Virus record (IMG/VR): IMGVR_UViG_3300032360_000004
Span: 1 to 61,310 of that record
Strand: one strand, 5' to 3'
Origin: a virus
Lineage: Duplodnaviria; Caudoviricetes
Length of the DNA: 61,310 bases
The position numbers and the translations under genes are program-made. The notes beneath the pieces were generated by a model. The model was not told the origin of the DNA. It made no database searches and worked only from the letters and a program-made list of their open reading frames with translations. This document shows, one piece after another, positions 2,860 to 59,167 of the stretch (positions are counted from its first letter, which is position 1; every line of letters starts with the position of its first letter).

Positions 2860-2890
2860 TTGCCCTGTACCGGGGTTACCGTGCTACCAT
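2860..2890 (+). promoter_or_regulatory. Candidate sigma70-like promoter upstream of the structured leader RNA and late operon
   Basis: TTGCCC-19 bp-TACCAT with an extended -10 TG, in an intergenic region. Confidence 0.3.
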
Positions 2891-2973
2891 GAGGGTTATG
2901 GGGTTGCAGGGCTTTACAGGCCCGTAGGCAGCCCCGTAGGGTACCCCAGCGTGCCCGTACATCTAACCCCCCG

Positions 2974-3133
2974 GTGCCACCACTGAAAACCCACCTTTCC
3001 TCCATGTTCTCTACGTGCGTTATGCGTTGCTACGGCTACCCGGCTGTCCGCTTGCTCCGGCTAGTAGGTTGTGCTGTGAACTGCGTAGCGTGTTGCATGA
3101 GAACAGTGTGGTTAGTAGGTGGTGGCACTTTTT
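2974..3133 (+). ncRNA. Rod-like structured RNA with GTCCGCTTGCTCCGGC at its apex (anti-RBS element 1)
   Basis: Nested stems GTGCCACCAC(2974-83)/GTGGTGGCAC(3119-28), TGTTCTC(3005-11)/GAGAACA(3099-3105) and GCGTTATGCG/TGCGTAGCGT, followed by a T tract. The many G.U pairs favour the + strand. Confidence 0.6.
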
Positions 3134-3163
3134 ACACCCCCAGTTATGTAGGGACCATCTACC

Positions 3164-37183: not shown

Positions 37184-39013
37184 CTAGCTAACATACACCA
37201 GCACCTTAGCAGCACGAGTGATAGCCACGTAACGCAGGTTCATTTCCTGGTCACGTTGCCATGCACTCTTAGCCATGGGGTGTGGGATACCCGCACCTTC
37301 CGGCTCCAGCAAAAACACCCGGTCGGCTTCTAACCCCTTGGCCTTATGTACACTGCTCAGCATGATGCCGGGAGTGTTTCGGTCGTTAGTAAATATCTGC
37401 TCGATCTTACTAATGACGTCCGCAATACTCTGGGCTTCCTCAGTGAAGCACAGCAGGCAATCGTGCCGGTCTTGCAAAGCAATGAGCCGGGCCGAACTGG
37501 GATTACGCTTAGCGTTTTCCTTTCGTTCTTCTGCGTGCAGCCAGTCAGTCAACCGGCCCACTAGGTTAGGTACGTCAGATGCCTTAAGCCTATTGACGGT
37601 GCTAATGAGACCTTGACCAATGTCCCGTCCCTGGATGTTAGCCTGCACCCCGTCTTTAATAAACCTAAAGCACTCACTGACCAGCGGAGCATTAACACGG
37701 CACAGTACCATGTCGCCACCTGTGGCTATGGTGCGGTAATTACCATCACCCTTATACGCAGCCCGTAGCACGGTGCCAGGACCGTTGTCGGGGTGGGCTT
37801 CAAAGTCTGGTACCAACGCACGGGCCTCTTCCACTATGGCCTTGCCACAACGGCGGGTCACTGTCAGTGGCAAACTAGTGCAGCCCCGGTTAGTCTCGCT
37901 AAGGATCTCTTCCAGGCGGGGTATGCTGTCACTGTCCGCACCGGCAAACCCGTAAATAGCCTGCTTGGGATCACCACACAGTACCAGCCTACTGCCTACC
38001 TTCAGGGCAAGCTGCTGCTGGCAGCGGTTCAGGTCCTGGGCTTCATCAACCAGCAGCAGATCGTACTGGGTGACGGGCAGGTCCAAGGCCACGGGTAGCC
38101 ATATCATGTCGTCGAAGTCTATGCACCCGTCACGGGTCACATCCTTACAACGGTCAAGCACTCGGGGCACAAGGTCAAACACTTCAGCCTCGCTACCATT
38201 AAGCTCCACGTCATAGTGGGCTGCCAGTTGTTGCAACTCATCCTGCATAGTAGTTAGCAGGTTGGTCTGAGTAGCACCCAGTCCCACGAGGTTCATCTTG
38301 CACAGGCTAACCAGCTTGGCAGTGGCCCGGACCATGGACCGTTTCTTCTCATCCCGTCGCAGGGCACGGCTATCCTGGCCCAGCAACTCAGCCACAATAT
38401 CCTGCACCCGGTACTGGTTAACCTTCACCCGGCCACAGGCTTTACCTACAGCCTTAAAGCCCATGCTGTGCATTGTCATAGCTTCACAGCCTGCGGGTAC
38501 CCGCTGCTGCAACTCTGTGGCGATGGACTTATTAAAGGCGACGAAGCAGATGGTGCGGACCTTACCTGCACTCAACTGCATAGCGTCCCACACGGCTGCC
38601 TGCTGGGGGCTGGGGGTTAGGGGGCTGGTGCCACCCTGTACCAGCTTTAACCCTTCCACCAGTGTGGTGGTCTTGCCAGTACCAGCCCGTGCAATAACAA
38701 CCAAGTGCGGTGCCGTGCACCGTATCAACGGCCTGTCCCCACGTAGGACATTGGCCAACCCAATACTGGGCTCCTGGTGTGGCGGGATACCACCAAGCCC
38801 TGTGCCGTCGTTGGCACAGGCGTCGGTGCTGTTGAGGCAGACAAACCTAGCAGCACTACGAAACGTATGTTCCAACCCGGTTACAGGCTCAGTGACAGTG
38901 TACCGGGTACGACCCCGGCTGTTCTGTGTAATAGCGTCCACACGTACGGACGTCTGCTCGCCACCCACTGTGGCCACATATAGTCTTCCCTGTTCAATCT
39001 GTGATTTCCTCAT
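37184..39013 (-). CDS. UvrD/Rep-like SF1 helicase
   Basis: ARAGTGKT, VDEAQD, GDPKQAIYGFAGA, SSVHKAKGLE, YVAITRA. Confidence 0.93.
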   Translation of the reverse strand: MRKSQIEQGRLYVATVGGEQTSVRVDAITQNSRGRTRYTVTEPVTGLEHTFRSAARFVCLNSTDACANDGTGLGGIPPHQEPSIGLANVLRGDRPLIRCTAPHLVVIARAGTGKTTTLVEGLKLVQGGTSPLTPSPQQAAVWDAMQLSAGKVRTICFVAFNKSIATELQQRVPAGCEAMTMHSMGFKAVGKACGRVKVNQYRVQDIVAELLGQDSRALRRDEKKRSMVRATAKLVSLCKMNLVGLGATQTNLLTTMQDELQQLAAHYDVELNGSEAEVFDLVPRVLDRCKDVTRDGCIDFDDMIWLPVALDLPVTQYDLLLVDEAQDLNRCQQQLALKVGSRLVLCGDPKQAIYGFAGADSDSIPRLEEILSETNRGCTSLPLTVTRRCGKAIVEEARALVPDFEAHPDNGPGTVLRAAYKGDGNYRTIATGGDMVLCRVNAPLVSECFRFIKDGVQANIQGRDIGQGLISTVNRLKASDVPNLVGRLTDWLHAEERKENAKRNPSSARLIALQDRHDCLLCFTEEAQSIADVISKIEQIFTNDRNTPGIMLSSVHKAKGLEADRVFLLEPEGAGIPHPMAKSAWQRDQEMNLRYVAITRAAKVLVYVS

Positions 39014-39243
39014 CGTGCTTGCTCCTTAGTGTTGGGCCTCTTACGGCCACGGGGATAGCCCTTGGGCTGTGGTGTGTCGCGGTATAGTTCCGCGTCATGT
39101 AGTGCAATGGTGTAGCGGTAGCCGTGCTGGTTATTACGAGTAGGTACCCGTCGTGCCCGCAACCGGCCCACACGTATAAGGGTGCGGACCTGTTGCGGAC
39201 TACAGCCTATAACCTTGGCTGCCTGAGCAGGGGTTAATACCAT
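39010..39243 (-). CDS. Excisionase-type HTH protein
   Basis: LTPAQAAKVIGCSPQQVRTLIRVGRLRA. Confidence 0.8.
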   Translation of the reverse strand: MVLTPAQAAKVIGCSPQQVRTLIRVGRLRARRVPTRNNQHGYRYTIALHDAELYRDTPQPKGYPRGRKRPNTKEQAR

Positions 39244-39250: not shown

Positions 39251-40792
39251 TCACTTCTTGTAGCAGGAAAGTAGTTCAGGTAGGTGGCCCAACAACAGGC
39301 CAGCCATGTCAGTCAGCTTGTTGGCGTAGTTCTCGTCATGGTCCAGGTAGCCCATGCCATGCACCAACTCATGTACAGCGGTTATAGCCAACTGGTGCAG
39401 GTCACCCCTTGCCCGGTTGGGACTGTAGTTATAACGGCGAGTATACTTGCCGTCCGCAATGTTAACCGGGTTGAGGTAGTACACCTTGCCGTGCTTCTCA
39501 GTACATTCGTACTGAGCCAGCACGTCGTCATCGCTGAATATAAAGCCCACTGTAAACTGGTCATCCCAGCCGTACACCTCATGCAGCTTGACCAGCAGCT
39601 TGGTCCAGATGGTCATGATGCGGTAGGCATACTTGCAGAAGTCCGGGCTATCCGGCCTGTACTGCTTTTTAACCTTGTAGCCAGTTTCATTCTTAATGAC
39701 GAAGGCACTGGCCAACACGTACACACCGGCATCCACCATCTGCTGGTGTTGCTCGGGGGTTGGCTGGCTGCCGTCCAGGTTAAACTTTATCTGGCCGTAG
39801 TGCTGCTCCACCACTGGCCGGTTATCATACTGGCCAGTGTCGCCACTGGTAACTACGTCACCAAGACTAGGACCACCCTCTTCCGCAGGGCGTGCCGTCA
39901 CGGTCTTAGCTGCCGTGGTCTTGGCTGCGTGCTTGGCTGCCTGTGCAGCGAAGCCAGTGCAGGCCACCTTATCGCCCTCGTACCGCAGGTACTCTATGGG
40001 CTTAGGCTTCAGTGCCTTACGCTTGTTGGTAATCAGGTCAGTTAGAAACTCATCCAACTGGGCCTGTTGCTGCCAACGCAAGCCGTCCCGGTTGGACATC
40101 AGCACGTCGCTGCTAATACCTTCCAGTTCTACCACCACACACCCGTCGTACTTGGTGGTCTGCGTGAACATGGGCGTACCACCAATCCTCACAACCAGTA
40201 ACCGGCTGGCCTGCTTGTTGGTGTACACCCGGCCGAAGGGCAGGTCGCGACGGTAATAGCCCCGTCGCATACCGCCATCCACTTGCTCACCGTTCACAGT
40301 AAACGTGCACCGCACGTTACTAAGACTGATGAACCGCTTAGCCTGTTGTAACAGGTCAGCACCGCATTCCTCAGGTATGGTGATGGTGCTGGTAGTGCCT
40401 TCCAGGCGTGGGGCATTGCGTCGCAACTTGTAGTTAGCCCCGGTACCACTGACTTCCAGCCTACCTGTGTGAATCTTGAAGGCTTCCCAGCAGAAGTACA
40501 GCAGTTCCTTGGCTTTGCCAAAGCCACCCACGCTACCGTCGGCAAAGTCTTTACCACTGGCACCCAGTGCCAGCAGCTTGCCAACCAGAGTATCCTCGGT
40601 CATAGGGCTACCGTTGTTGGCCACTATAACCGTGGTGCAGCCACCACCGGCTTCCCTGATGGTAACGTCCACCTGTTTGCTGCCGCAGTCTATACTGTTC
40701 TGGAAAAACTCACGCAGCAACGCCCACTGCCAGTTACGGTAGTCATTACGGGCCTTGCTAAAAAACTCAGGACTAATAGTTATCTGGGACAT
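39251..40792 (-). CDS. GHKL (HSP90/MutL-like) ATPase with C-terminal HExxH domain
   Basis: LLREFFQNSID, NNGSPM, SGK, GGFGKA; C-terminal AVHELVH...H. Confidence 0.8.
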   Translation of the reverse strand: MSQITISPEFFSKARNDYRNWQWALLREFFQNSIDCGSKQVDVTIREAGGGCTTVIVANNGSPMTEDTLVGKLLALGASGKDFADGSVGGFGKAKELLYFCWEAFKIHTGRLEVSGTGANYKLRRNAPRLEGTTSTITIPEECGADLLQQAKRFISLSNVRCTFTVNGEQVDGGMRRGYYRRDLPFGRVYTNKQASRLLVVRIGGTPMFTQTTKYDGCVVVELEGISSDVLMSNRDGLRWQQQAQLDEFLTDLITNKRKALKPKPIEYLRYEGDKVACTGFAAQAAKHAAKTTAAKTVTARPAEEGGPSLGDVVTSGDTGQYDNRPVVEQHYGQIKFNLDGSQPTPEQHQQMVDAGVYVLASAFVIKNETGYKVKKQYRPDSPDFCKYAYRIMTIWTKLLVKLHEVYGWDDQFTVGFIFSDDDVLAQYECTEKHGKVYYLNPVNIADGKYTRRYNYSPNRARGDLHQLAITAVHELVHGMGYLDHDENYANKLTDMAGLLLGHLPELLSCYKK

Positions 40793-40907
40793 GGTGTGCT
40801 TGCTCCTAATTGTGGCACATAGTTATATGCCGGGCCAATCATTATAACCGCTAACCGCCACACACCACAACCACCCCCCGGTGGGGTGGTGTGGTATGTG
40901 TAAGAGG

Positions 40908-41105: not shown

Positions 41106-41145
41106 ACGCTTGCTCCTAGTTGTGGGCCAGTGGCCCGGTTAGTTC

Positions 41146-42777: not shown

Positions 42778-43152
42778 CTAGCAGTCCGAACCAATCGTGG
42801 GGCAGCAGTGAGCAGAGTTGCACCGGTACTTAGGAGTGATGGTCCCAGCGTTGTAGGGAGTCATCGGGTTGCCGCACTCACCACATGAGGGTCGGCGGGT
42901 TTTCTTGGGGGCCGGTAGTGGCAAAGCACAAATCCCATCTGAGTCAATGACATTGTAAGCGGCTTGGAGCAGGCTGACCTGTGCAGCCCTTTCCTCTTTG
43001 GTCTGGACCCACTCTTGCACTGGGTACAGGTCAGCACTGGTGAGGTAGTGGATCTTACACAGGGCGTCCAGGTCTTTGTTGTTGATGGCAGTGGCGAGGG
43101 CGTTGTTGAAGTCAGTCGCGTTTGTGATGAAATCCATGTCGAAGTCGAACAT
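42778..43152 (-). CDS. Hypothetical protein with C-terminal Zn ribbon
   Basis: GGAGCAAGC RBS before MFDFDMDF; CGECG...YRCNSAHC. Confidence 0.65.
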   Translation of the reverse strand: MFDFDMDFITNATDFNNALATAINNKDLDALCKIHYLTSADLYPVQEWVQTKEERAAQVSLLQAAYNVIDSDGICALPLPAPKKTRRPSCGECGNPMTPYNAGTITPKYRCNSAHCCPTIGSDC

Positions 43153-43227
43153 GTGCTTGCTCCCGGTTATGGTTGGTAGTGGTTGGTGTGGTCTAGTAGT
43201 AGTATCGGTCGCCGTGCTCAACAGACT

Positions 43228-43940: not shown

Positions 43941-45416
43941 CTACTCAGGCCGTAGGCAGTCCAGCGGTACGTCATAGGTGTTACCGGTTTCATTGTCCTC
44001 CACTTGGGCAACGGTGCCTGCCGGGCCTTGGTACGTGTCCTGCAGAATGCCCTTCCACGGTTTGGTGTTAGGGTCATCTACCAACACCCGGACTCCTGCC
44101 AACTCACCTTCCCACGTCCACGTCCCTGGGATCGGGTCTTTGGCCTTAGACGGCTTGGCCTTTTTCTTACCCCGGCCACCCGCCTTCTTGGCTTCAGCCT
44201 TTGCCCGTTCGGCTGCTGCACGGGTGGCAATCTCTTCCAGGCTGGGGTCGTTGGCTGCTGCCACTTCAGCCGGGTCGCCTAGGTCAATGCCACCCACGTC
44301 AGCCGTCTCGGCCAACGTGCGAAACCCGTCTGGGTCTGTGTGGTAGTCCAGCACTAGGTGTTTGGCAGTAACAGCCTTACCTGTGGCGTACTGGTTCCAA
44401 GCCTTGGCCAGCAGCCCGGTACGCTCAGGTACGCTACCACCACCGTCGTCCACCATGTGGGCTAGTGCTACCCGCACTGCCTTTAGTTGGTTGTCACTAC
44501 CAGCCAACCACACCAGGAAATCACAGGCATCCTCCCACTGGGCAAAGTCCAGCAGGTCTTCGCTGGGGTTACTGGCTGCCCGGTACTCAGCCGGGTCGGT
44601 ACCGCTGCTGCCCATCAGGTACAACATACCAGCCATATAACCAAGGCTCAGGTAGCGAGACAGTTGCTTGTCCCCCCCGTCCTCTTGGTACACGTGCTGC
44701 ACACAGTCCAGCAGCTTGGGGTGACGGGCAATAAAGTCCAGGGCTTCAGCATGGGTCCGCCGTGGGGCATGAGCACTAAGCCCCATACCAGTACGGCTCC
44801 ATAACAGCCGCACCGCATAGTCAGTAATGCGGGCCACCTTGCGTCGTGCCACGCTGGGCATATTGGCAAAGTGGTTGCTGCGGTAGATGACGTCGGCCAA
44901 GCTGCGAGGCTTACACGTGTCCATGGTATTAATCACGTGGTCCTCCTCACTGATGCCATACACCACCAGCTTTACCATGGTGGGTTGCTGGGTATGGCCG
45001 GGCCAGTCTTCTGGGGCTTCTTGCCATGCCTCCGCTGCCAGTATGAAACTGATAAGCGTATGCTGGCCATTCAGCACCAACCCGGTGGAGCCAATAATGA
45101 CCGGCTCCCCGTTCATCTGCCACCGTTGTCGCAGGTGTTCCTGCTTCAGCATTTGCACCACGCCACCATACAGGGGTCGGTTGGTGACATTGTTGTAGCA
45201 CCGGATCTTAGTGCCGTGGTGGTTTCGCAGCAGGTAGTCACTGCCATAGGGGGCGTCCTCAGTTTCCTCTTCCCAACCTAGCAAGTCCTTAGCTTGGTCT
45301 ACGGTCAGGGGTTTGCTGTCATCACACAGGGACAAGGTTACTTCCGGGTACAGCACCGTACGACCATTAGTATCCGTCGCGGTGGTGCTGGTTTTCTTCT
45401 TGGGTGCTTTAGGCAT
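43941..45416 (-). CDS. ParB/DndB-like (DGQHR-type) protein with Lys-rich linker
   Basis: NRPL...WQMNGEPVII...GLVLNGQHTL, DTCKPRSLAD. Confidence 0.65.
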   Translation of the reverse strand: MPKAPKKKTSTTATDTNGRTVLYPEVTLSLCDDSKPLTVDQAKDLLGWEEETEDAPYGSDYLLRNHHGTKIRCYNNVTNRPLYGGVVQMLKQEHLRQRWQMNGEPVIIGSTGLVLNGQHTLISFILAAEAWQEAPEDWPGHTQQPTMVKLVVYGISEEDHVINTMDTCKPRSLADVIYRSNHFANMPSVARRKVARITDYAVRLLWSRTGMGLSAHAPRRTHAEALDFIARHPKLLDCVQHVYQEDGGDKQLSRYLSLGYMAGMLYLMGSSGTDPAEYRAASNPSEDLLDFAQWEDACDFLVWLAGSDNQLKAVRVALAHMVDDGGGSVPERTGLLAKAWNQYATGKAVTAKHLVLDYHTDPDGFRTLAETADVGGIDLGDPAEVAAANDPSLEEIATRAAAERAKAEAKKAGGRGKKKAKPSKAKDPIPGTWTWEGELAGVRVLVDDPNTKPWKGILQDTYQGPAGTVAQVEDNETGNTYDVPLDCLRPE

Positions 45417-45678
45417 TGGTTTGGTCTTTCTTGTTGGGGTGTGTGCTTGCAATAGGGGTTCCCACCTGGACAGGTCTAGGTACGTAGATCCTTAAGGGTG
45501 GGACAGGTGCCTGTGGTTCTTCAGCCGATAACTGCTTCTCCTCTTTAACTGGTTTAGGGTTTCTTACTTCCACCTTAGCGATGCCTTCACTGGCAAGAGC
45601 GTGGACAATCCAATCTTCTTGTGGCGGTTCCAGGCTGGCTATATCTATGCCTGCTGGAACACGTACGACCTTTACCAT
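45409..45678 (-). CDS. Hypothetical protein
   Basis: GGAGCAAGC RBS before MVKVVR. Confidence 0.55.
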   Translation of the reverse strand: MVKVVRVPAGIDIASLEPPQEDWIVHALASEGIAKVEVRNPKPVKEEKQLSAEEPQAPVPPLRIYVPRPVQVGTPIASTHPNKKDQTNA

Positions 45679-45884
45679 CTGCTTGCTCCCATCCATGTGG
45701 TTACCTGCTGTTAGGGGCAGGGTAGCCCTACGGCCAATTGACCGGGGGGCTGTTATACACAGCAATTGCTGCCGGGTGCAACCCCAGTTTACCCAGCGGG
45801 TAAAAACTGCACCCCCCTGTACAGCTTGGGCCAGTAGTTTAGTATAAACAGTATGCCACGGGTGGCAGCCAGGAGCACAACACA

Positions 45885-46551: not shown

Positions 46552-46584
46552 GTGGTAAGCTATTACTAAGGAGCAAGCACACCA

Positions 46585-47142
46585 ATGGCCACACGTTACC
46601 AAGCACACCGTAAGAAATGGATAGACTGTACGGCTTGCCCTTTGCACCAAGGACGAACACAGGTGGTGCTAGCCCGTGGCCACCTACCTGCCGACATACT
46701 GTTTGTGGGTGAGGCTCCTGGTGCTAGTGAAGATGTACTAGGGCGTCCGTTTGTTGGGCCTGCTGGGCACCTGTTAGACAGCATAGTGGACCAAGCCTTG
46801 GACGCAGTACCCGGTATAGGTGTAGCTTTCACCAACCTAGTAGCCTGCATTCCTAAGACTGGGGCAACAACTGCTAAGATTGGCGAACCGCCTGCACAGG
46901 CTATACAGGCGTGCAATCCTAGGCTGCTGGAACTCATTGACCTATGCCACCCCCAGTTAATAGTGGGCGTGGGGGTACTGGCTACCAAGCACCTGGAAGC
47001 ACTAGACTCCTCTATGGTCATGGTTATTAGTATTGTCCACCCGGCTGCCATATTGCGTATGGACATCAGTCAACGGGGGCTAGCAATACAACGGGCCACC
47101 ATAGCTTTGGAAGACGCAGCCACAGAACTAGTCCCATTTTAA
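46585..47142 (+). CDS. Uracil-DNA glycosylase family 4 (Fe-S)
   Basis: CTACPL, FVGEAPG.SED..GRPFVGPAG, TNLVACIP, HPAA. Confidence 0.92.
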   Translation: MATRYQAHRKKWIDCTACPLHQGRTQVVLARGHLPADILFVGEAPGASEDVLGRPFVGPAGHLLDSIVDQALDAVPGIGVAFTNLVACIPKTGATTAKIGEPPAQAIQACNPRLLELIDLCHPQLIVGVGVLATKHLEALDSSMVMVISIVHPAAILRMDISQRGLAIQRATIALEDAATELVPF

Positions 47143-47158
47143 GGAGCAAGCAACAGCC

Positions 47159-48202
47159 ATGGCTATTACACCCATCTGGCAAGGCCCGGAAAAAGACGGT
47201 ATCACCCAGTCGCTGCTTGGTAGGTTTCTGTCCTGCCGTGAACGGTTTCGGCTATTAGTAGTGCACGGGTTAAAACCTGTGGACACTTTTAGGCACGCCC
47301 TGGAATACGGTCAAATGTGGCACGCCTGCGAGGAAGCCCACGCAGACGGTGCCGACTGGGCTGAAGCCCTGCAAGAATACTGCCAACCACTGGCCCGGCA
47401 ATATCCCACCCAGCAAGAGCAGGTACAGCACTGGTACCGGGTATGTAAAACGCAGTTCCCTATATACGTAAAGTATTGGGCCAAGCACCCCGATGTTAAA
47501 AACCGGGAACCACTAGTACAGGAGCAGACGTTTAACATTCCCTATGAGTTACCCAGTGGGCGTACCGTGCGGCTGCGGGGTAAGTGGGACAGCGTGGATG
47601 TCATTGGCAAAGGCAGCCGGGCCAAAGTGTACCTACAGGAAAACAAGACTAAGGGTGATGTAGACGAGGAACAACTCAAACAGCAACTACAGTTTGACCT
47701 ACAGACCATGCTGTACCTAACAGCCATGCACATGGCAGGCGACCCCACACAGGCGTGGCCCCACAGCATTGCCGGGGTACGGTACAATGTAGTACGCAGG
47801 CCACTAAGTGGTGGCAGGCACAGCATACGGCAGCACAAGCCCACCAAGAGCAAGCCCCAAGGCGAAAGCCAGGATGAGTATTACAATCGGTTAGGTGGGC
47901 TTATAGCCAGTGACCAGGACTTTTTCTTTATGCGATGGAAGGCAGTGGTAACTGATGCAGACGTGGAAACATTTAAACAGCAGTTCCTTAACCCAGTGCT
48001 AGAACAACTCTGTCAGTGGTGGGACCACATTACCACCAACCTGGAAGACCCATTCCAACCCAGCAACACTACCCACTACCGTTACCCGTTTGGAGTATAT
48101 AACCCGGTAGGTGTGGGCCGAGCCAGTGAACTGGATGAGTACCTGTCCACAGGCAGTACACTGGGCCTGCAAGAAACCGACACTGTATTTCCGGAACTGT
48201 AA
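47159..48202 (+). CDS. PD-(D/E)xK RecB/Cas4-like exonuclease
   Basis: LRGKWD...LQENKT, Q...Y motif; paired with the Sak4-like gene. Confidence 0.8.
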   Translation: MAITPIWQGPEKDGITQSLLGRFLSCRERFRLLVVHGLKPVDTFRHALEYGQMWHACEEAHADGADWAEALQEYCQPLARQYPTQQEQVQHWYRVCKTQFPIYVKYWAKHPDVKNREPLVQEQTFNIPYELPSGRTVRLRGKWDSVDVIGKGSRAKVYLQENKTKGDVDEEQLKQQLQFDLQTMLYLTAMHMAGDPTQAWPHSIAGVRYNVVRRPLSGGRHSIRQHKPTKSKPQGESQDEYYNRLGGLIASDQDFFFMRWKAVVTDADVETFKQQFLNPVLEQLCQWWDHITTNLEDPFQPSNTTHYRYPFGVYNPVGVGRASELDEYLSTGSTLGLQETDTVFPEL

Positions 48203-48217
48203 GAGGAGCAAGCACTA

Positions 48218-49072
48218 ATGCCCAACGTAACGAAGCAAACAACCAAGCCCCGTAAGCGTAAGAAGGGTGGCAAGGTAGTTGACCGCATCCAACCTATAGG
48301 CTTTGACAAGAAGGACGGTATAAAGATTAACCTGTACGGACGCAGTGGCACGGGTAAGACCACCCTGTGGGCTACCTTCCCCAAGCCAATACTGGCCGTG
48401 GTATGCAGTGGGGGTAGCCAGCCCGGTGAACTACGCAGCATTAATACCCCGGCCTACCGCAAGACAATTAATCAGGTGGTGATTGAAAGCAGTGAGGAAA
48501 TTAAAGAACTGGTGGAGTACCAGAAGGAAACTAATAAGTATGCCACCATAGTGCTGGACCACGCCACCGGTCTACAGGACTACGTGCTGCGTGAGGTACT
48601 AGGTATAGACCAAGCCCCGGCCCAACTAAGCTGGGGCGTTGCTAGCCAGCAGCAGTACGGGCAGGTAGCTCTACAGATGAAGGAGCGGCTACGTAGCCTG
48701 CTGGACCTAGACTGTAACGTAGTTATAGTGGCCCAGGAGCGGGAGTTTAATACTGACAGCGAGGGTGACCTGCTAATGCCGTTCGTTGGTAGTGCCCTGA
48801 CACCCAGTGTGACGGGGTGGTTAAACCCAGCCTGTGACTATATCTGCCAAACCTTTATCCGACAGGTTTCTGAGCAGGTAACTATTAAGGTAGGCAACAA
48901 GGAAGTTAAGAAAAGCCGTAAGGGTGCCGGGGTGGAGTACTGCCTGCGTACAGCCCCCGACCCTGTGTTCATCACTAAGTTTCGGCTCCCCAAAGGGGTG
49001 GACCTACCAGATGTAATAGTGGACCCAGACTTTGACAACATCAACCAACTCATCACAGGGCAAGGAGGCTAA
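48218..49072 (+). CDS. Sak4-like AAA recombinase/annealing ATPase
   Basis: LYGRSGTGKTT, TIVLD, VIVAQE. Confidence 0.8.
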   Translation: MPNVTKQTTKPRKRKKGGKVVDRIQPIGFDKKDGIKINLYGRSGTGKTTLWATFPKPILAVVCSGGSQPGELRSINTPAYRKTINQVVIESSEEIKELVEYQKETNKYATIVLDHATGLQDYVLREVLGIDQAPAQLSWGVASQQQYGQVALQMKERLRSLLDLDCNVVIVAQEREFNTDSEGDLLMPFVGSALTPSVTGWLNPACDYICQTFIRQVSEQVTIKVGNKEVKKSRKGAGVEYCLRTAPDPVFITKFRLPKGVDLPDVIVDPDFDNINQLITGQGG

Positions 49073-49073
49073 C

Positions 49074-49286
49074 ATGGATGTCGAAGTCAGAACAGGTAAC
49101 CTAGTTATCACTCGGAAAACTAATGAGAGTTTTATCATTGGGGATGATATAAAGGTTACCATTCTGGATGTAGGTGTAGACAAGGTACGTGTAGGGATTG
49201 AAGCCCCCAAGACAATTAGCATACATCGCCAAGAAGTCTACAACGCTATACAGAGTGGAAGGGGGGAACAGGCAAACACCATCTAG
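49074..49286 (+). CDS. csrA: Carbon storage regulator CsrA/RsmA homologue
   Basis: LVITRKTNESFIIGDDIKVTILDV..DKVRVGIEAPKTISIHRQEVY, with the RNA-binding HR retained. Confidence 0.95.
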   Translation: MDVEVRTGNLVITRKTNESFIIGDDIKVTILDVGVDKVRVGIEAPKTISIHRQEVYNAIQSGRGEQANTI

Positions 49287-49342
49287 TTTAGAGACCATCT
49301 ATTTTAGTACACACCTAAGAACTAAGAGCGAGAAGGATCACC

Positions 49343-50350
49343 ATGCCAAAGAAAACCGGAAGCGGTGGATTTTCCAACAAGCTGGGTAAAGCGGGTCGGA
49401 AAGCGTTTAATACCCACAAGAGCGACGACACTAATATGGGAGGTGGTGCTGAACTGCCGCCCGGCATTGAAGGAGGTATAGCTCAACTGGTGGAGTGCAA
49501 GTTTGACCAGTATAAGCGTGGCCCTAATCAGGGGGAATATTTCTTCTACGCTGCTGCGGTAGTTGTGCAGCCTACTGAGCATGGAGGTATCGGTATTGAG
49601 GGGCTGCGTACCAGTATCATGGAACCGCTGTGTGACACCCCCCAACGCAGCCGACCCGACATGGATGCCCACCTGGACTGGGTGTTAAATGAACTGCGTA
49701 AGCTGGGTGTGGCCACAGACGATATCGACTTTGATGATATTGAAGACGTGGCAGCAGCTATTAAAGCCGAGGGACCTTATATGAGGTTCCGCACGTGGCA
49801 GGGTGAACCCACCGAGCAGTGGCCCAACCCACGGGTTAACCACCAGTGGGGTGGTGCCTGCACATATACCCCGGATGATGACGGGGATGCTGTGGTGGAC
49901 AACACTGATGATGACGATGAAGATGATGAAGATGACACCCCGGCACCAGTGGAAGACACTACTGATAGTTCTGACCTGGACGCACTGGCTGCTGCTTCAG
50001 ATGAAGGTGACGAGGAGGCCCAATCTAAACTGGCCGACGCAGCCTTTGAAGCCGGTGTGGATGAGGAAGATGTTAGTAATGCTGAGAACTGGGTAGCCGT
50101 AGCTGAACTGGTTAAAGCAGTTGACCAGGACGAGACTGATGATGACGACGATGATGATGACGATGACGAGGCTACCGATTGGCAGCCAGAGAAGGGGGAA
50201 GTGTATAGCTATAAGCCCCCCAAGGCACGCAAGACGGTGGACTGCGAAGTGACTGCTGTGTTTAGTGGCAAGGAAACGTGCAACCTTAAAAACCTTGACG
50301 ATGGCAAGGTCTATAAGGCTGTGTCCTGGGATAAGCTGGAGCAGGAATAG
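49343..50350 (+). CDS. Putative ssDNA-binding protein with long acidic C-terminal region
   Basis: Follows the exonuclease and Sak4 genes; OB-like N-terminal half; poly-Asp/Glu tracts. Confidence 0.55.
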   Translation: MPKKTGSGGFSNKLGKAGRKAFNTHKSDDTNMGGGAELPPGIEGGIAQLVECKFDQYKRGPNQGEYFFYAAAVVVQPTEHGGIGIEGLRTSIMEPLCDTPQRSRPDMDAHLDWVLNELRKLGVATDDIDFDDIEDVAAAIKAEGPYMRFRTWQGEPTEQWPNPRVNHQWGGACTYTPDDDGDAVVDNTDDDDEDDEDDTPAPVEDTTDSSDLDALAAASDEGDEEAQSKLADAAFEAGVDEEDVSNAENWVAVAELVKAVDQDETDDDDDDDDDDEATDWQPEKGEVYSYKPPKARKTVDCEVTAVFSGKETCNLKNLDDGKVYKAVSWDKLEQE

Positions 50351-50369
50351 TTTCCAGGCTGCTAGAATT

Positions 50370-50421
50370 CCCAAGGATGGGTTATGGGTGTGTGCTTGCT
50401 CCCTTGGGCCACGGATGGCCC
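50370..50421 (+). ncRNA. Small RNA element: two GGA-loop hairpins flanking the anti-RBS GGGTGTGTGCTTGCTCCCTT (anti-RBS element 3)
   Basis: CCCA-AGGA-TGGG (50370-81) and GGGCCA-CGGA-TGGCCC (50406-21); alternative stem CCCAAGG/CCTTGGG. Confidence 0.6.
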
Positions 50422-50428
50422 TTTATAT

Positions 50429-50502
50429 ACCCCTGTAGCTCAGTCGGTTAGAGCAGGGTGCTCATAACGCTTTGGTCGCAGGTTCGAATCCTGCCGGGGG
50501 TA
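50429..50502 (+). tRNA. tRNA with CAT anticodon, most likely tRNA-Ile2 (lysidine, reads AUA); CCA not encoded
   Basis: Cloverleaf ACCCCTG/CGGGGGT, GCTC/GAGC, loop CTCATAA, GCAGG-TTCGAAT-CCTGC. C4/C5 acceptor pairs and the overall sequence resemble Ile2 tRNAs. Confidence 0.9.
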
Positions 50503-50538
50503 CTAGGGTCAATAGAGTGGAAAGGATACCCACCATCG

Positions 50539-51102
50539 GTGATAAACAAAAAACTAGGGAAGCTGTTAAAGACAGCCAGAGCAACTAAACCCCAGTGGAA
50601 ACTATTACCGTCCGTACTGTTGTGCCCCAATATACCCAAGCCCCTGCACGGTGTAGCACCCCGTGTAATACTAGGTAGTAAGTGGTGGGACGTTACCCGT
50701 AGGGCAGCCTACGCCAGCACCGGGTACCACTGCCAAGCCTGTGGGGTGCATAAGTACCACGCCCGTCTACACCAGTGGTTAGAAGCCCATGAGGAGTACG
50801 ATACCGACTACCTGTTAGGTCGCATGACTTACATACGCTCTGTGCCCCTGTGCCACTACTGCCACGCCTATATACACAGTGGCCGACTGCAAGCCCTGCG
50901 GGACAAAGGTCAGATTAAACCCCAACTACACGACGAGATACTAAGCCACGGTGACCGGGTACTAAGGCAGGCAGGGCTAACCAAGCCACCAACACACAAC
51001 GGTCCTATGGCCGACTGGAGCGACTGGCGACTGGTGCTGAATGACAAACTATATCCACCAAAGTTTAAGACAGTAGAGGAGTGGGAAAAGGAGTTCGCAT
51101 GA
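50539..51102 (+). CDS. HNH-like endonuclease (start uncertain)
   Basis: CQACG, LEAHE, LCHYCHAYIH. Confidence 0.75.
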   Translation: MINKKLGKLLKTARATKPQWKLLPSVLLCPNIPKPLHGVAPRVILGSKWWDVTRRAAYASTGYHCQACGVHKYHARLHQWLEAHEEYDTDYLLGRMTYIRSVPLCHYCHAYIHSGRLQALRDKGQIKPQLHDEILSHGDRVLRQAGLTKPPTHNGPMADWSDWRLVLNDKLYPPKFKTVEEWEKEFA

Positions 51103-53099
51103 TTATAAGCCTAGACACAGAAACTACTGGACTGGATCTACGGCATGGCAGCAGGCCATTCCTGGTGACCATGTACAACAGCGACGACGTTACCACGTGG
51201 TGGGAGTGGGACGTAGACCCACTAACCCGGCAGCCTGTTGTACCCCCCGGTGACCTGGAAGAGGTACAGCAAACTATAGACAGTGCCGAGTTTATAGTTT
51301 TGCAGAACGCTAAGTTCGATGTAGCTGCCCTACAGTCTGTTTACCACGGCACCCTGGAATGGGATTGGTCCAAGGTCTATGACACCCTGTTGGCTGGCCA
51401 CCTGTTAGCAAGCAACCACCCCCACGACCTGACCACTATGGCCCTGATGTACTTGGGTGTAGATATAAAGTCCCAGGACAACACCGTGCAACAAGCCTGC
51501 AACGAGGCCCGTCGTATAGCACGCAGCAGGTACCCAGATTGGTTAATAGCCCGTAGTGACGACCCGACCATGCCCAGTGCTAAGGGTTCCCTAGCTAAGA
51601 GCGATATGTGGTTACCTCGTGCTGTGGCCAAGGTAGAACACTACCCCACTAACCACCTGTGGCATACGGTGTGTGCCCGATACGCCAATGTTGATAGTGA
51701 GGTCACCCTCCACCTGTTTAACCGCCAACGGCAGCTATTAGAGGAGCGGGGCTTGTGGGATATATACCTGACCCGCCTACGGGTGCTACCTATTGCATAT
51801 GACATGGAGAGCCGAGGCATAACTATATGCCGAAGCCGCCTGGAACAACTACAACAGGAGTACACAGAGGAGAGTGGCCAAGCTGGCCGGGTGTGTGTCA
51901 ACATTGCTACTAGTTTTGGTGCGGACCTACGCCTACCTAAAGGGGGTAATAACAACAGCCTGCTTAGTACCGTGTTTGGCAGTATGGGACTGGAGCCTGT
52001 TAAACGGTCTAAGAAAACTGGTGCTCCCAGCCTGGACAAGCAAACTATAGAACACTACGAAGCTACCCTGCCCCCACGAAGTAGGGAACTAACATTCGTA
52101 CAGGCACTAAGACGCAAACGCAAACGCGACACAGCCCTGCAATACATGGAAGGCTATATAAGGTTCTGGCTGCCCTTAGACAGTGACCAGGACACCGGGT
52201 GGTACCGCTTGCACCCCAGCCTAAACCCAACAGGTACGGACACCCTGCGGTGGAGCAGTAGTAACCCCAACGAGCAGAACATCAGCAAGCAGGAAGGGTT
52301 TAACCTGCGGCACTGCTTTGGCCCAGCACCGGGCCGTGAGTGGTGGAGCCTGGATGCTAAGAATATAGAACTGCGTATACCCGCCTATGAGGCTGGGGAG
52401 ACCGAGATGGTAGACCTGTTCGAACGTAGTGACGAACCGCCCTACTACGGCAGCTACCATATGTTAATATTCGACACCCTGCATCCAGACAAGTTTGCCC
52501 AGTACGGTATGGAATGTAAACAGCGGTACGGCAGCACGTGGTACCAGTGGACCAAGAATGGAAACTTCGCTGTGCAGTACGGGGCAGTGGAAGCCAGCGG
52601 TACCGCTGACCGGGCCTATCATATACCGGGTGCCCAGCACCGCATACAGGAACGATTCTCTAAGGTGGCTGCTCTTAATACTAAGATGATAGAGTTCGCC
52701 ACCCAGCACGGTTACGTAGAGACCATGCCAGACCTGACCGTAGATCCCACCCGTGGCTACCCGCTGCTATGTACACTGAGCCAGTGGGGTGAAGTGCTGC
52801 CCACTGTGCCCCTGAACTACCACGTACAGGGAACAGCTATGTGGTGGATGATGAAGGCCATGTTGAGGTGCCAGGAGTACCTGGACACGTTACCCGGCTG
52901 CTACATGGTTATGCAGATACACGACGAACTGGTGTTTGACTTTCCACAAGGCAAGGGGCTACAGCCGTGGCGTACTAATATGCCCCGCATCCGCAGGATT
53001 AAAAGCCTGATGGAAGAGAGTGGTAAGGACCTAGGAATACCCACACCCGTCAGTTTAGAATATCACCCCACCACCTGGAGCGAGGGTATGGTCCTATGA
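51099..53099 (+). CDS. polA: Family A DNA polymerase with 3'-5' exonuclease
   Basis: SLDTETTG, QNAKFD, YANVD; SSSNPNEQNI, LDAKNIELRI, KNGNFAVQYG, QIHDELV. Confidence 0.95.
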   Translation: MIISLDTETTGLDLRHGSRPFLVTMYNSDDVTTWWEWDVDPLTRQPVVPPGDLEEVQQTIDSAEFIVLQNAKFDVAALQSVYHGTLEWDWSKVYDTLLAGHLLASNHPHDLTTMALMYLGVDIKSQDNTVQQACNEARRIARSRYPDWLIARSDDPTMPSAKGSLAKSDMWLPRAVAKVEHYPTNHLWHTVCARYANVDSEVTLHLFNRQRQLLEERGLWDIYLTRLRVLPIAYDMESRGITICRSRLEQLQQEYTEESGQAGRVCVNIATSFGADLRLPKGGNNNSLLSTVFGSMGLEPVKRSKKTGAPSLDKQTIEHYEATLPPRSRELTFVQALRRKRKRDTALQYMEGYIRFWLPLDSDQDTGWYRLHPSLNPTGTDTLRWSSSNPNEQNISKQEGFNLRHCFGPAPGREWWSLDAKNIELRIPAYEAGETEMVDLFERSDEPPYYGSYHMLIFDTLHPDKFAQYGMECKQRYGSTWYQWTKNGNFAVQYGAVEASGTADRAYHIPGAQHRIQERFSKVAALNTKMIEFATQHGYVETMPDLTVDPTRGYPLLCTLSQWGEVLPTVPLNYHVQGTAMWWMMKAMLRCQEYLDTLPGCYMVMQIHDELVFDFPQGKGLQPWRTNMPRIRRIKSLMEESGKDLGIPTPVSLEYHPTTWSEGMVL

Positions 53100-55445: not shown

Positions 55446-55467
55446 TCATGACCACCGGGCAGGTACC

Positions 55468-55504
55468 AAAGAAAAACCCCCACCCCCCAAAGGGGGCAGG
55501 GGTT
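55468..55504 (-). terminator. Rho-independent terminator for the histone-like gene
   Basis: GC-rich hairpin followed by TTTTTCTTT on the - strand. Confidence 0.65.
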
Positions 55505-55525
55505 ACAACAGCCGGGCCAGTGGCC

Positions 55526-56332
55526 CTAGCTAAACTTCAACATCTTTGCCAAGCCGGGGGCCGTCAGTTTGGGACCCTTGGCCGCAACCTTGCTGGCCTT
55601 CTTGGGTGCCTTCTTGGCCTTGGCCTTGGCCTTGGCCTTGGGGGCAGCCTTGGGGGCAGCCTTCAGGGTCTTGGTGCCCTTGGCCGTGACGGCGAAGCAG
55701 AACCGTGCTCGGCCGTGGTTGTCCTGGGCCTCATGGCTCTTGATGAGTCCCTGACCTTCCAGGCTGTTGGGGTAGCTGGCACCCTTGCTACTGTTGGCAG
55801 CCATCATGCGGGTCAGCCCCTTCAAGATGCCCGTGGCAACCCGGACGTCATTGTAGGACACGTTGCCCTTGGCCTTGGCCACTGCGGTCAGGATTCTAAC
55901 CTGACTGCCCGTGAGTCCAGCAACCTTGGGGCCAGTGGCCTTGCGGGTCTTGCGGCTGGCCTTGGGGCTGGCCTTCTTGGTGTTCTTCTTGGCAGTCTTC
56001 TTGGCAGTCTTCATAGCTTGCTCCTTGCCACTCTTGGTGGCTTTGGAAACTTGACGGGAGGTACGCTGCCCCGACTTCAGCAACAGAGTGCAGGGCACAG
56101 CCTGCACATTGAGGAAACCTTGATTTGTACGGGTGGCAACCTGCTTGGCAGCCAACTCAGGAGAACCGGCCCAACCCAGCACACCGTCTCCGGGCAGGTT
56201 GTAATGTCTGGTCTCGCCGGTTGCAGGGTGGTGGATCCCAGTGGCCGTAATGCAGTGGGTGTAGGTGCGGGCCGTGGTGCGGGTGTGGATGGTGCCGTCT
56301 TGGGCGGTTATGGTGTAGGTTTTCTTGGACAT
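55526..56332 (-). CDS. Histone H1-like Lys/Ala-rich protein with central winged-helix; second in-frame start at 56014
   Basis: KTAKKTAKK and KAAPKAAPKAKAKAK repeats flank LTGSQVRIL...SLEGQGLI...FAVTAKG. A GGAGCAAGC RBS precedes both 56332 and 56014. Confidence 0.75.
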   Translation of the reverse strand: MSKKTYTITAQDGTIHTRTTARTYTHCITATGIHHPATGETRHYNLPGDGVLGWAGSPELAAKQVATRTNQGFLNVQAVPCTLLLKSGQRTSRQVSKATKSGKEQAMKTAKKTAKKNTKKASPKASRKTRKATGPKVAGLTGSQVRILTAVAKAKGNVSYNDVRVATGILKGLTRMMAANSSKGASYPNSLEGQGLIKSHEAQDNHGRARFCFAVTAKGTKTLKAAPKAAPKAKAKAKAKKAPKKASKVAAKGPKLTAPGLAKMLKFS

Positions 56333-56377
56333 GGTTGCTTGCTCCGTTTGCGTGGGCCGTGTGAATGTCATAAACGA

Positions 56378-56406
56378 ACTATCCCAGTTATCGGCAAACA
56401 GCACAA
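56378..56406 (-). promoter_or_regulatory. Candidate sigma70-like promoter for the histone-like gene
   Basis: TTGTGC-17 bp-GATAGT with a TG extension. Confidence 0.4.
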
Positions 56407-56461
56407 GCCCCCTGCACCTGTTTTGGCAAGTTTGTTATAAATAGCAAGCAAACCCCTCGTT

Positions 56462-58652: not shown

Positions 58653-58669
58653 TAGAGGGAGCAAGCACT

Positions 58670-59167
58670 ATGGACCCAACACAATACCAACAACTGGCAG
58701 CACGCACTGAGTGTGACCAGGAAGCAGCCCGACAACGTGTAGCAACCGACAATATGTTACGCACCACCCGGCTGCTGCACGCCTGCTTAGGATTGTCTGG
58801 AGAGGTAGGTGAGTTGTCTGCTGCTGCCGAACGCTGGGTGTACTACGGGCACGACCTGGATGCAGGTAATGTAAAGGAGGAGGTAGGTGATTGCCTGTGG
58901 TACCTAGCCCTAGCCTGTAACGCCCTAGGCTTGGACATGGCACAGGTGATGGAAGCTAACATAGCTAAGCTGCGTCAGCGGTACCCTTCTAAGTATAGTG
59001 ACGACCAAGCCCTGGAAGTTAACCGTGACCGGGCAGCAGAACGCAGCATAGTGGAAGGTGTCCCCGACAGTGACCAAAACCCCATGGTACAAAATGGCCA
59101 AGGCTGGGCCGAGCCACCTTGGGGATTTAATGCCCACCGATTAGATAACGATAACTGTGATGCTTAG
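58670..59167 (+). CDS. MazG-like NTP pyrophosphohydrolase
   Basis: YQQLAART, GLSGEVGE, EEVGDCLWY, NIAKLRQRYP. Confidence 0.9.
   Translation: MDPTQYQQLAARTECDQEAARQRVATDNMLRTTRLLHACLGLSGEVGELSAAAERWVYYGHDLDAGNVKEEVGDCLWYLALACNALGLDMAQVMEANIAKLRQRYPSKYSDDQALEVNRDRAAERSIVEGVPDSDQNPMVQNGQGWAEPPWGFNAHRLDNDNCDA

What the first reader, a model, noticed from the sequence alone, without database searches (positions are those of the whole stretch)
50370..50421. Bistable sRNA-like element: anti-RBS seed bracketed by two CsrA-type GGA hairpins, in the tRNA leader downstream of phage csrA
Seen: CCCA-AGGA-TGGG and GGGCCA-CGGA-TGGCCC hairpins flank GGGTGTGTGCTTGCTCCCTT. This seed is complementary over 13 nt to GGAGCAAGCACAC leaders (the UDG gene at 46570 and the GHKL gene at 40792) and over 14 nt to GCAAGCACACACCC upstream of the ParB-like gene. 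A mutually exclusive 7-bp stem, CCCAAGG(50370-76)/CCTTGGG(50402-08), would disrupt both GGA hairpins and partly hide the anti-SD. Established: CsrA/RsmA dimers bind two A(N)GGA hairpin loops, and RNase P cleavage at a tRNA 5' end would create a 3' end for this leader. Inference: CsrA acts as a conformational switch or matchmaker that presents the seed, rather than being simply sponged.
Basis: partly seen in the sequence, partly recalled or inferred. Interest (0 to 1): 0.88.

Follow-up and report, generated by a model that had tools for sequence, protein, structure and literature searches.

The report
Phage anti-RBS RNA beside CsrA sites
A short non-coding stretch just before a phage tRNA gene carries the exact mirror image of the ribosome-binding signal shared by at least eleven of the phage's early genes, flanked by two hairpins that look like CsrA binding sites, so it may be a small RNA that switches those genes off together.

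Summary
Both GGA-loop hairpins, the 13-nt complementarity and the alternative 7-bp stem are at the stated coordinates.

GGAGCAAGC is the phage's shared ribosome-binding leader. 11 of 14 copies lie 1-7 nt before an ATG, all between 39 and 59 kb. The element holds the only intergenic antisense copy with the full 13 nt.

The antisense core recurs at the same place in 2 of 52 distinct relatives (L002, L117; chance about 4e-5). Both also use GGAGCAAGC as a leader, and the three phages are scattered on an AAA_24 tree. Silent sites between the window and L002 are saturated at 32-36% identity, yet core plus hairpin 2 is 23 of 29 identical, with one compensatory stem change.

The CsrA SELEX core CANGGATG is enriched at this position in the family: 8 hits against 0.71 expected.

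Not supported: bistability. The alternative stem has pair probability 0.018 and is absent from the L002 fold. GGA hairpins do not track csrA presence. Hairpin 2 also scores as a terminator.

No expression data exist. Best reading: a tRNA-leader/3'UTR anti-RBS RNA with probable CsrA sites, confidence 0.45.

The parts
49074..49286 (+). phage csrA gene; CATGGATG overlaps its start codon
   Evidence: Pfam CsrA PF02599, E 3.7e-22. PHROG 9500 CsrA-like regulator, E 3.5e-19. CATGGATG at 49073-49080.
49343..50350 (+). 335-aa gene with an acidic C-terminal half and no known family; the element is its 3' UTR
   Evidence: ORF. No Pfam or PHROG family. Syntenic homologues in relatives.
50370..50381 (+). 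hairpin 1, CCCA-AGGA-TGGG; carries CAAGGATG, the core of the CsrA SELEX consensus
   Evidence: Sequence. Pair probability 0.74. L002 has GTACATGGATGG at the same relative place. Consensus taken from passages of PMC7652899.
50387..50406 (+). anti-TIR seed; the exact 13-nt complement of GGAGCAAGCACAC lies at 50390-50402
   Evidence: Exact 10-nt core in L002 and L117 at the homologous place. 17 nt shared with L117 apart from one 1-nt indel (read by eye).
50406..50421 (+). hairpin 2, GGGCCA-CGGA-TGGCCC; terminator-like and shaped like a CsrA site
   Evidence: Pair probability 0.97. Terminator-like hit. Present in 3 distinct genomes. C-G to T-A compensatory change in L002.
50422..50428 (+). 7-nt T/A-rich spacer between hairpin 2 and tRNA position 1; predicted 3' tail after RNase P cleavage
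   Evidence: Sequence. The cleavage itself is inferred.
50429..50503 (+). tRNA-Met (anticodon CAT)
   Evidence: ARAGORN. Rfam RF00005, 65.8 bits.
46570..46582 (+). TIR motif GGAGCAAGCACAC before the UDG gene (ATG at 46585); an exact 13-nt target
   Evidence: UDG PF03167.
40794..40806 (-). TIR motif before gene 39251-40792; an exact 13-nt target
47143..47152 (+). TIR motif before the PD-(D/E)XK nuclease gene (ATG at 47159)
48205..48217 (+). TIR motif before the AAA_24 ATPase gene (ATG at 48218)
39013..39025 (-). TIR motif before the UvrD-like helicase gene (ATG at 39013)
41108..41116 (-). TIR motif GGAGCAAGC, then 2 nt, then ATG
43151..43163 (-). TIR motif, then ATG
45677..45689 (-). TIR motif, then ATG; CATGGATG directly upstream at 45690-45697
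56016..56024 (-). TIR motif before an in-frame internal ATG of minus-strand ORF 55526-56404
56333..56345 (-). TIR motif before ATG 56332 of minus-strand ORF 55526-56404
58658..58670 (+). TIR motif, then ATG
45438..45451 (-). GCAAGCACACACCC in the leader of minus-strand ORF 43941-45452; 14 nt complementary to the seed, with no GGAG

Best explanation
The 78 nt between the acidic gene's stop (50350) and tRNA-Met (50429) form a conserved non-coding RNA module. It is both the 3' UTR of the acidic gene and the 5' leader of the tRNA.

Its selected core (50390-50402) is an 'anti-TIR': the exact complement of GGAGCAAGCACAC. That sequence is the Shine-Dalgarno-plus-spacer leader shared by at least 11 early or replication genes.

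Proposed mechanism, all inferred:
1. The module is transcribed with csrA, the acidic gene, the tRNA, the HNH gene and polA.
2. Its 3' end is set either by RNase P cutting at the tRNA 5' end or by termination at hairpin 2. Hairpin 2 then protects that end.
3. The core, which lies between two hairpins and is about half unpaired, pairs with the shared leaders and blocks 30S binding.
4. This gives coordinated down-regulation of that gene class.

The two CANGGATG sites, 38 nt apart, are probable binding sites for a CsrA dimer, from the phage or the host. CsrA could stabilise, titrate or assist the RNA. That part is the least secure.
For: The motif is a translation-initiation region. 11 of 14 GGAGCAAGC copies lie 1-7 nt before an ATG, on the gene's strand, all within 39-59 kb. 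Five of these genes are confirmed by Pfam. The 10-mer with up to 1 mismatch gives 17 matches against 4.48 expected (0 of 100 shuffles).

The antisense copy is conserved.
- The exact 10-nt core occurs in 2 of 52 distinct relatives at the homologous position, against an expectation of 0.0095 (P about 4e-5).
- Window against L002: 4-fold sites are 32-36% identical, but core to hairpin 2 is 23 of 29 identical (P 1.3e-6, window chosen after the fact).
- One compensatory pair is seen in hairpin 2.

The core co-occurs with its target.
- L002's contig has GGAGCAAGC before an ATG 3 times, plus GGAGCGAGC and GAGCAAGCA variants.
- L117 has the motif before its acidic gene.
- Among the 50 relatives without the core, only 2 exact leader copies were seen (L027, L030).
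- Position 11 agrees in each phage. In the window it is C in the seed complement and in 6 of 11 leaders. In L002 it is A in the seed complement and in 3 of 5 leaders that keep GAGCRAGC.

The three bearers are dispersed on an AAA_24 tree: 3 changes, and well-supported branches force at least 2 (quick tree).

Seed-to-leader duplexes are -22.6 to -30.0 kcal/mol for 6 motif leaders, against -13.9 +/- 3.6 (minimum -24.2) for 55 others.

On the minus strand no start codon follows at leader spacing in the window, L002 or L117.

CANGGATG gives 8 hits in 6 of 53 regions against 0.71 expected.
Against: - There is no expression or end-mapping evidence of any kind.
- Only three genomes carry the core, and only part of L117's contig (4.2 kb) is held.
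- The leader is not unusually stable (z 0.79), and the core is only about 50% unpaired in each of the three folds.
- In L117 the core sits inside an 11-12-bp hairpin, with no CANGGATG hairpins beside it.
- 50 of 52 relatives lack the core, although most have csrA.
- A(N)GGA-loop hairpins do not track csrA presence: 11 of 41 against 3 of 12.
- Hairpin 2 is adequately explained as a terminator or end-protecting hairpin, and similar hairpins without GGA follow the acidic gene in many relatives.
- The region is a hotspot for insertion of tRNA and HNH genes, so recombination scars are plausible.
- The conservation windows and the CANGGATG motif were chosen after seeing the data.
- L033 and L114 are sister lineages, and hairpin 2 in the window, L002 and L003 is homologous, so the counts are not independent.
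Confidence: 0.45

Rival explanations
1. This is an ordinary 3' end. Hairpin 2 is the intrinsic terminator or end-protecting hairpin of the csrA-acidic gene transcript, placed just before a tRNA. The antisense leader copy is a non-functional scar of recombination at a short repeated leader, in a hotspot for tRNA and HNH gene insertion. The GGA loops are incidental.
For: - Hairpin 2 is a terminator-like hit in 45-52 kb.
- Terminator-like hairpins follow the acidic gene in many relatives, some directly abutting a tRNA, as in L015.
- The region between the acidic gene and polA varies in content and holds an HNH endonuclease gene.
- GGA-loop hairpins are common: 150 on the + strand.
- The fold is not exceptional.
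Against: - A neutral scar should not survive saturation of silent sites: 32-36% identity there against 23 of 29 in the element.
- It should not recur as 17 shared nt in the distant L117.
- It should not be found only in genomes that use the leader.
- polA lies downstream with no obvious promoter, and the tRNA starts 7 nt after the hairpin, so full termination is unlikely.
Confidence: 0.25
2. This is a CsrA-only element. The two CANGGATG sites bind a CsrA dimer, from the phage or the host. They act as a small decoy, or allow CsrA to modulate read-through or stability at hairpin 2 and so expression of the tRNA, HNH and polA genes. The antisense leader copy plays no pairing role.
For: - The sites match the SELEX core, with GGA in the loops.
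- They are 38 nt apart.
- Both sites are kept in L002, and hairpin 2 with an AGGA loop is kept in L003.
- CANGGATG is enriched: 8 hits against 0.71 expected.
- Further CANGGATG copies sit over the csrA start codon and just 5' of one leader.
Against: - It does not explain the conservation of the 10-17-nt core, which is the best-conserved part and is present in L117 without CANGGATG sites.
- A(N)GGA-loop hairpins show no association with csrA presence.
- Two sites are far fewer than in known sponges.
- A 6-bp G+C-rich stem may be too stable for good binding (remark on stable stems in PMC7652899).
Confidence: 0.15
3. The RNA is bistable: the 7-bp stem 50370-76/50402-08 competes with both GGA hairpins, and CsrA binding flips the RNA to expose the seed.
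For: The complementarity exists. The constrained ensemble is only 1.9 kcal/mol above the two-hairpin state.
Against: - The alternative pairs have probability 0.018, against 0.97 and 0.74 for the hairpins.
- The default state is already the 'presented' one, so no switch is needed.
- The MFE fold of L002 has no equivalent long-range stem, and L117 has a different architecture.
Confidence: 0.05
4. The copy works on the minus strand or as DNA. It would be a real leader for a small minus-strand ORF, or a protein-binding DNA site that is independent of orientation.
For: The minus strand reads a perfect leader. A 125-aa TTG ORF (49997-50374) lies downstream of it.
Against: - No ATG, GTG or TTG follows at leader spacing in any of the three genomes. 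The TTG is 25 nt after GGAG.
- The ORF is antisense to an acidic repeat and looks spurious.
- In 11 of 11 leader copies the motif lies on the gene's own strand, 1-7 nt from the ATG. That points to an RNA-level signal.
Confidence: 0.05

Closest known systems
c4 antisense RNA of phages P1 and P7
   Same: It is a phage antisense RNA, co-transcribed with its targets, that covers a ribosome-binding site. Its precursor is an RNase P substrate. (Only the title of Hartmann et al. 1995 was seen, in the reference list of PMC4919922. The mechanism is recalled.)
   Different: c4 has one target operon. Here the target would be a leader shared by at least 11 genes on both strands. c4 is not a tRNA leader and has no CsrA-type sites. 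There is no sequence or Rfam relation.
McaS, a base-pairing sRNA that also binds CsrA
   Same: It combines a base-pairing region with exposed GGA motifs that bind CsrA. (Passage and reference in PMC7652899. See also the listing for PMC10729762.)
   Different: McaS is a chromosomal, stand-alone, Hfq-dependent sRNA. This element is phage-borne, is part of a 3' UTR and tRNA leader, and would target the phage's own genes.
CsrB/CsrC/RsmX/Y/Z sponge RNAs
   Same: They carry GGA in short hairpin loops, with the CA-GGA-UG context.
   Different: Sponges carry many sites (13-22 for CsrB or CsrC, per the abstract of PMC6546359). Only two are seen here. No Rfam match appears even at E up to 5. A conserved antisense core has no counterpart in sponges.
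CsrA-promoted SR1-ahrC pairing in Bacillus subtilis
   Same: CsrA acts as a chaperone that promotes sRNA-mRNA complex formation (abstracts of PMC6546359 and PMC8501984). This is the precedent for the 'matchmaker' idea.
   Different: That is a host system with a single target and a different RNA architecture. Nothing comparable was tested here.
tRNA-spacer-derived regulatory RNAs (3'ETS-leuZ type) and 3'UTR-derived sRNAs
   Same: A regulatory RNA is released as a by-product of tRNA or mRNA processing (recalled; not checked in a paper here).
   Different: Those act as sponges for sRNAs or come from host operons. Here it would be a 5' leader acting on mRNA leaders of a phage.
T4 RegA and RegB (functional analogy only)
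   Same: They are phage factors that shut down a class of early genes through their translation-initiation regions (recalled).
   Different: They are proteins. Here the proposed effector is an RNA.

Membership tests
CsrA-binding sites (SELEX consensus RUACARGGAUGU) | GGA in the loop of a short hairpin, with ACA upstream and GU downstream | tested here: inconclusive
   Hairpin 1 matches 8 of 12 positions (CAAGGAUG contiguous, CCA instead of ACA). Hairpin 2 matches 7 of 12. L002 site 1 (GUACAUGGAUGG) matches 10 of 12. Counted by eye against the consensus quoted. GGA is unpaired at 0.88-1.00. Binding itself is not testable here.
CsrA-binding sites | two sites spaced so that one dimer can bridge them | tested here: met
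   GGA at 50375 and at 50413 are 38 nt apart. The permissive range is recalled, not checked.
CsrB/Rsm sponge RNAs | many GGA sites; match to an Rfam Csr/Rsm model | tested here: not met
   Two sites only. No Csr or Rsm family at the gathering threshold or at E up to 5.
trans-acting antisense sRNA that blocks an RBS | contiguous complementarity covering the SD or start region of the targets | tested here: met
   13 nt are exact to 2 leaders, and 10 nt to 8 more copies of GGAGCAAGCA. Duplex energies are -22.6 to -30.0 kcal/mol, against -13.9 on average for controls.
trans-acting antisense sRNA that blocks an RBS | seed conserved and covarying with its targets | tested here: met
   The core is exact in L002 and L117, and both use the leader. 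Position 11 agrees between seed and majority leader in the window and in L002. The sample is small: three genomes.
trans-acting antisense sRNA that blocks an RBS | a discrete, stable transcript with defined ends | not testable with these tools
   No RNA run holds the region. Contigs laid do not cover it.
intrinsic terminator | G+C-rich stem-loop followed by a U tract | tested here: met
   6-bp stem with 5 G-C pairs, then TTTATATA, which has 5 T in 8. The tract is weak and interrupted. L002 has no T tract.
bistable RNA switch | two mutually exclusive folds of similar energy, both conserved | tested here: not met
   The energy gap is 1.9 kcal/mol and the alternative pairs have probability 0.018. 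There is no equivalent stem in the L002 or L117 folds.

The most novel reading that the evidence does not exclude
The phage marks a temporal class of at least 11 early or replication genes with one leader 'zip code', GGAGCAAGCAC. It also encodes, in the leader of its own tRNA, a single anti-leader RNA. RNase P releases this RNA, and the neighbouring phage CsrA binds its two flanking GGA sites and presents it. Together the RNA and protein would form a phage-wide translational timer that shuts the class off as the middle operon is expressed.
Probability: 0.15. Interest if true: 0.85.

Novelty: new variant of a known kind. Interest (0 to 1): 0.62.

Why it matters
csrA genes are known in phage genomes: 30 of 2517 in the survey of PMC7366521 (passages seen). 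In the passages and listings I saw, no role and no RNA partner is described for them.

Here a csrA-bearing family of marine phages offers a concrete, testable partner: a 60-80-nt RNA with two CsrA-type sites and an antisense core aimed at a shared ribosome-binding leader.

If it works as proposed, it would show three things:
- one small RNA controlling a whole temporal gene class through a common leader;
- a tRNA 5' leader used as a regulator;
- a function for phage CsrA.

If it does not, the conserved inverted leader copy still needs an explanation.

Tried and rejected
Searches for more evidence that gave little or nothing:
- DNA search of the phage collection with 49000-51200 found only tRNA matches.
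- A protein-pattern search with the acidic gene alone found no relatives. The polymerase and an AAA_24 alignment did find them.
- Seed-plus-hairpin-2 pattern in viral contigs found only L002's contig.
- Seed-plus-tRNA-start pattern in viral contigs found nothing.
- Host search: an exact 39-nt tRNA stretch had no match in genome contigs. AAA_24 relatives in genomes were only 3 distant hits at 29-34% identity. The host remains unknown.
- L117's full record is not held.

Expression:
- No RNA holder is listed for 47000-53000.
- Laying four runs on 49900-50700 gave no cover over 50116-50412 and only tRNA-like fragments. It is uninformative about variants and ends.

Ideas tested and dropped:
- An 8-mer screen for each relative's own anti-leader sequences was too noisy. 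L003's TTCTTCTT matched only one leader.
- TTTCCAGGCTGCTAG is not a repeated motif beyond chance-level near matches.
- A sigma-70 promoter reading of the seed and TATATA was rejected by eye, because the spacing is wrong and the start would fall inside the tRNA.
- Pairing between the leader and the tRNA acceptor or D stem is seen in a weak tRNA-Sec alignment for L002 (22.9 bits). It is not shared by the window or L003, so I dropped it.

Other points:
- My early note that L004 and L005 lack csrA was wrong for L004. An HMM finds csrA in L029, which is the same contig.
- My notebook says 15 copies of GGAGCAAGC. One search lists 14.
- The careful tree did not finish, so only the quick tree was used.
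- Supplementary files of papers were not opened. Table S7 of PMC7366521 (csrA-positive phages) might bear on relatives.

Full report
WHAT IS THERE

The window is a 61,310-base virus record, estimated 87% complete. It is held by marine metagenome runs. Genes around the finding run on the + strand in this order:
- UDG (46585-47142)
- PD-(D/E)XK nuclease (47159-48202)
- AAA_24 ATPase (48218-49072)
- csrA (49074-49286)
- a 335-aa gene with an acidic tail and no family (49343-50350)
- the 78-nt element
- tRNA-Met(CAT) (50429-50503)
- an HNH endonuclease gene (about 50539-51102)
- family-A DNA polymerase (51081-53099)

THE 'LEADERS' ARE ONE SHARED TRANSLATION-INITIATION MOTIF

GGAGCAAGC occurs 14 times in the window. 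Eleven copies lie on the coding strand, 1-7 nt before an ATG. All eleven fall between 39 and 59 kb, in the replication or early region, on both strands. Five of those genes are confirmed by Pfam.

The 10-mer with up to one mismatch gives 17 matches against 4.48 expected, and 0 of 100 shuffles reach that. Structural genes tend to use a related GGAGCGAG leader instead.

Three copies are not leaders: 10940 (+), 3058 (-) and 50402 (-).

CONSERVATION

Using the polymerase and an AAA_24 alignment as probes I collected about 180 loci. The gene order UDG, nuclease, AAA_24, (csrA), acidic gene, variable region, (HNH), polA is conserved. csrA is present in most relatives.

The stretch after the acidic gene is very diverse. 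It usually holds a terminator-like hairpin. It often holds a tRNA or a tRNA-like gene.

Among 52 distinct relatives, the exact 10-nt core TGCTTGCTCC occurs in this stretch in two, L002 and L117. The expectation is 0.0095, so P is about 4e-5.

Between the window and L002, 4-fold degenerate sites in three flanking genes are 32-36% identical, which is saturated. From the core to the end of hairpin 2, 23 of 29 positions are identical (window chosen after the fact). The one difference between the paired stem positions of hairpin 2 is compensatory: C-G becomes T-A.

The window and L117 share GGGTGT(A)GTGCTTGCTCC, which is 17 nt with a single 1-nt indel. They also share the start of a homologous tRNA.

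Hairpin 2 itself (GGGYCANGGATGRCCC) is found in three distinct genomes: the window, L002 and L003.

CO-OCCURRENCE WITH THE TARGET

L002's 14-kb contig uses GGAGCAAGC before an ATG three times, plus close variants. L117 uses it before its acidic gene, within the 4.2 kb that is held. In the roughly 50 relatives without the core I saw only two exact leader copies, in L027 and L030.

Position 11 of the motif agrees between the seed complement and the majority of leaders in each phage:
- window: C, in 6 of 11 leaders
- L002: A, in 3 of 5 leaders

On a quick AAA_24 tree the three bearers are dispersed. Three changes are needed, and well-supported branches force at least two. The backbone is weak, only one marker was used, and the careful search did not finish.

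Duplexes between the 24-nt seed segment and six motif leaders are -22.6 to -30.0 kcal/mol. For 55 other leaders of an approximate gene set the mean is -13.9 +/- 3.6 kcal/mol.

STRUCTURE

The two-hairpin conformer dominates. Hairpin 2 has pair probability 0.97 and hairpin 1 has 0.74. The GGA bases are unpaired at 0.88-1.00.

It has no counterpart in the L002 or L117 folds. The RNA is therefore not meaningfully bistable.

The whole leader is not more stable than shuffles. The core is about half unpaired in all three genomes.

Hairpin 2 followed by TTTATATA scores as terminator-like. It ends 7 nt before tRNA position 1. RNase P cleavage would leave a hairpin-protected 3' end; this is an inference from established knowledge.

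CsrA

Both hairpins carry CANGGATG, the core of the SELEX consensus RUACARGGAUGU, with GGA in the loop (passages of PMC7652899).

In the window as a whole this 8-mer is not enriched: 9 matches against 7.5 expected. Two copies sit here, 38 nt apart. One overlaps the csrA start codon. One lies just 5' of a leader.

Across the family, the 150 nt after the acidic gene hold 8 copies in 6 of 53 regions, against 0.71 expected from the rest of the same loci. The motif was chosen after the fact, and some of these lineages are related.

Against a dedicated partnership with phage CsrA:
- A(N)GGA-loop hairpins are enriched over shuffles (19 against 8.7 +/- 2.7), but structured regions would show that anyway.
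- They are equally frequent in csrA-positive (11 of 41) and csrA-negative (3 of 12) loci.
- L117 keeps the core without CANGGATG sites.

No Rfam family matches the element, even at E up to 5.

VERDICT

The best-supported part is the conserved anti-leader core. The CsrA sites are plausible but secondary. The switch is not supported.

I read the element as a 3'UTR and tRNA-leader RNA that pairs with the shared leader of an early gene class (confidence 0.45). Rivals:
- terminator plus recombination scar (0.25)
- CsrA-only element (0.15)
- bistable switch (0.05)
- minus-strand or DNA-level function (0.05)

Nothing is known about expression.

The closest known systems are the RNase P-processed c4 antisense RNA of P1 and P7, the dual-function sRNA McaS, and CsrA-assisted SR1-ahrC pairing (the c4 mechanism is recalled). 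Phage csrA genes are already on record (PMC7366521). In the listings and passages I saw, no phage RNA of this kind is described. That is not a full literature search.

Noticed in passing
L003:2510-2610 and 2687-2826; L117:about 2684-2822; also L054, L109 and L126 after the acidic gene: These relatives carry tRNA-like genes with 34-76-nt (or longer) insertions in the anticodon region. ARAGORN misses them. Rfam tRNA scores are 26.4 and 41.9 bits in L003. The insertions are too short for classical group I introns.
   Followed up: partly
L009/L010/L018:3340-3411: A tRNA with anticodon CTA (amber-reading; ARAGORN labels it 'Pyl') lies after the acidic gene in one lineage. This suggests possible stop-codon reassignment or suppression in that phage.
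   Followed up: no
L002:4646-4716: A degenerate tRNA-like element (T arm plus acceptor, no normal D arm) follows hairpin 2. Its best Rfam hit is mascRNA-menRNA at 27.7 bits, below threshold. A weak tRNA-Sec alignment uses the seed's GCTCCG as the acceptor strand and hairpin 2 as the D arm.
   Followed up: partly
window 55526-56404 (-): A 292-aa minus-strand ORF lies inside the + strand block and overlaps + strand ORF 55448-56440. It has two in-frame ATGs (56332, 56014), each preceded by the GGAGCAAGC leader, which suggests long and short isoforms. No Pfam or PHROG family was found for it.
   Followed up: partly
window 15499, 18242, 20102, 27616, 34489, 53077, 49326: A second leader class, GGAGCGAG (or GAGCGAGA), lies before ATGs, mainly of structural genes. 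The phage therefore seems to have two related leader classes that differ between early and late modules.
   Followed up: partly
window 49060-49080: The csrA initiation region, CAAGGAGGCTAACATGGATG, holds several GGA motifs, including CATGGATG over the start codon. This could allow autoregulation.
   Followed up: no
window 50517-50537: A third GGA-loop hairpin, GTGG-AAAGGATAC-CCAC, lies just after the tRNA and about 2 nt before the GTG (50539) of the HNH gene. Its loop resembles the D loop of L003's tRNA-like gene, so it may be a tRNA remnant.
   Followed up: no
window 2745-3163: This is a 420-nt non-coding region ahead of the structural module. It contains another + strand GCTTGCTCC (3050-3058), a 9-nt antisense leader copy. 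A single 9-mer is within chance expectation.
   Followed up: no
L020 (L002's contig): position 150 (-) in the orientation used: One leader in L002 is directly preceded by ACAAGGATGG, a near-consensus CsrA site. The window's leader at 45689 is likewise preceded by CATGGATG.
   Followed up: no
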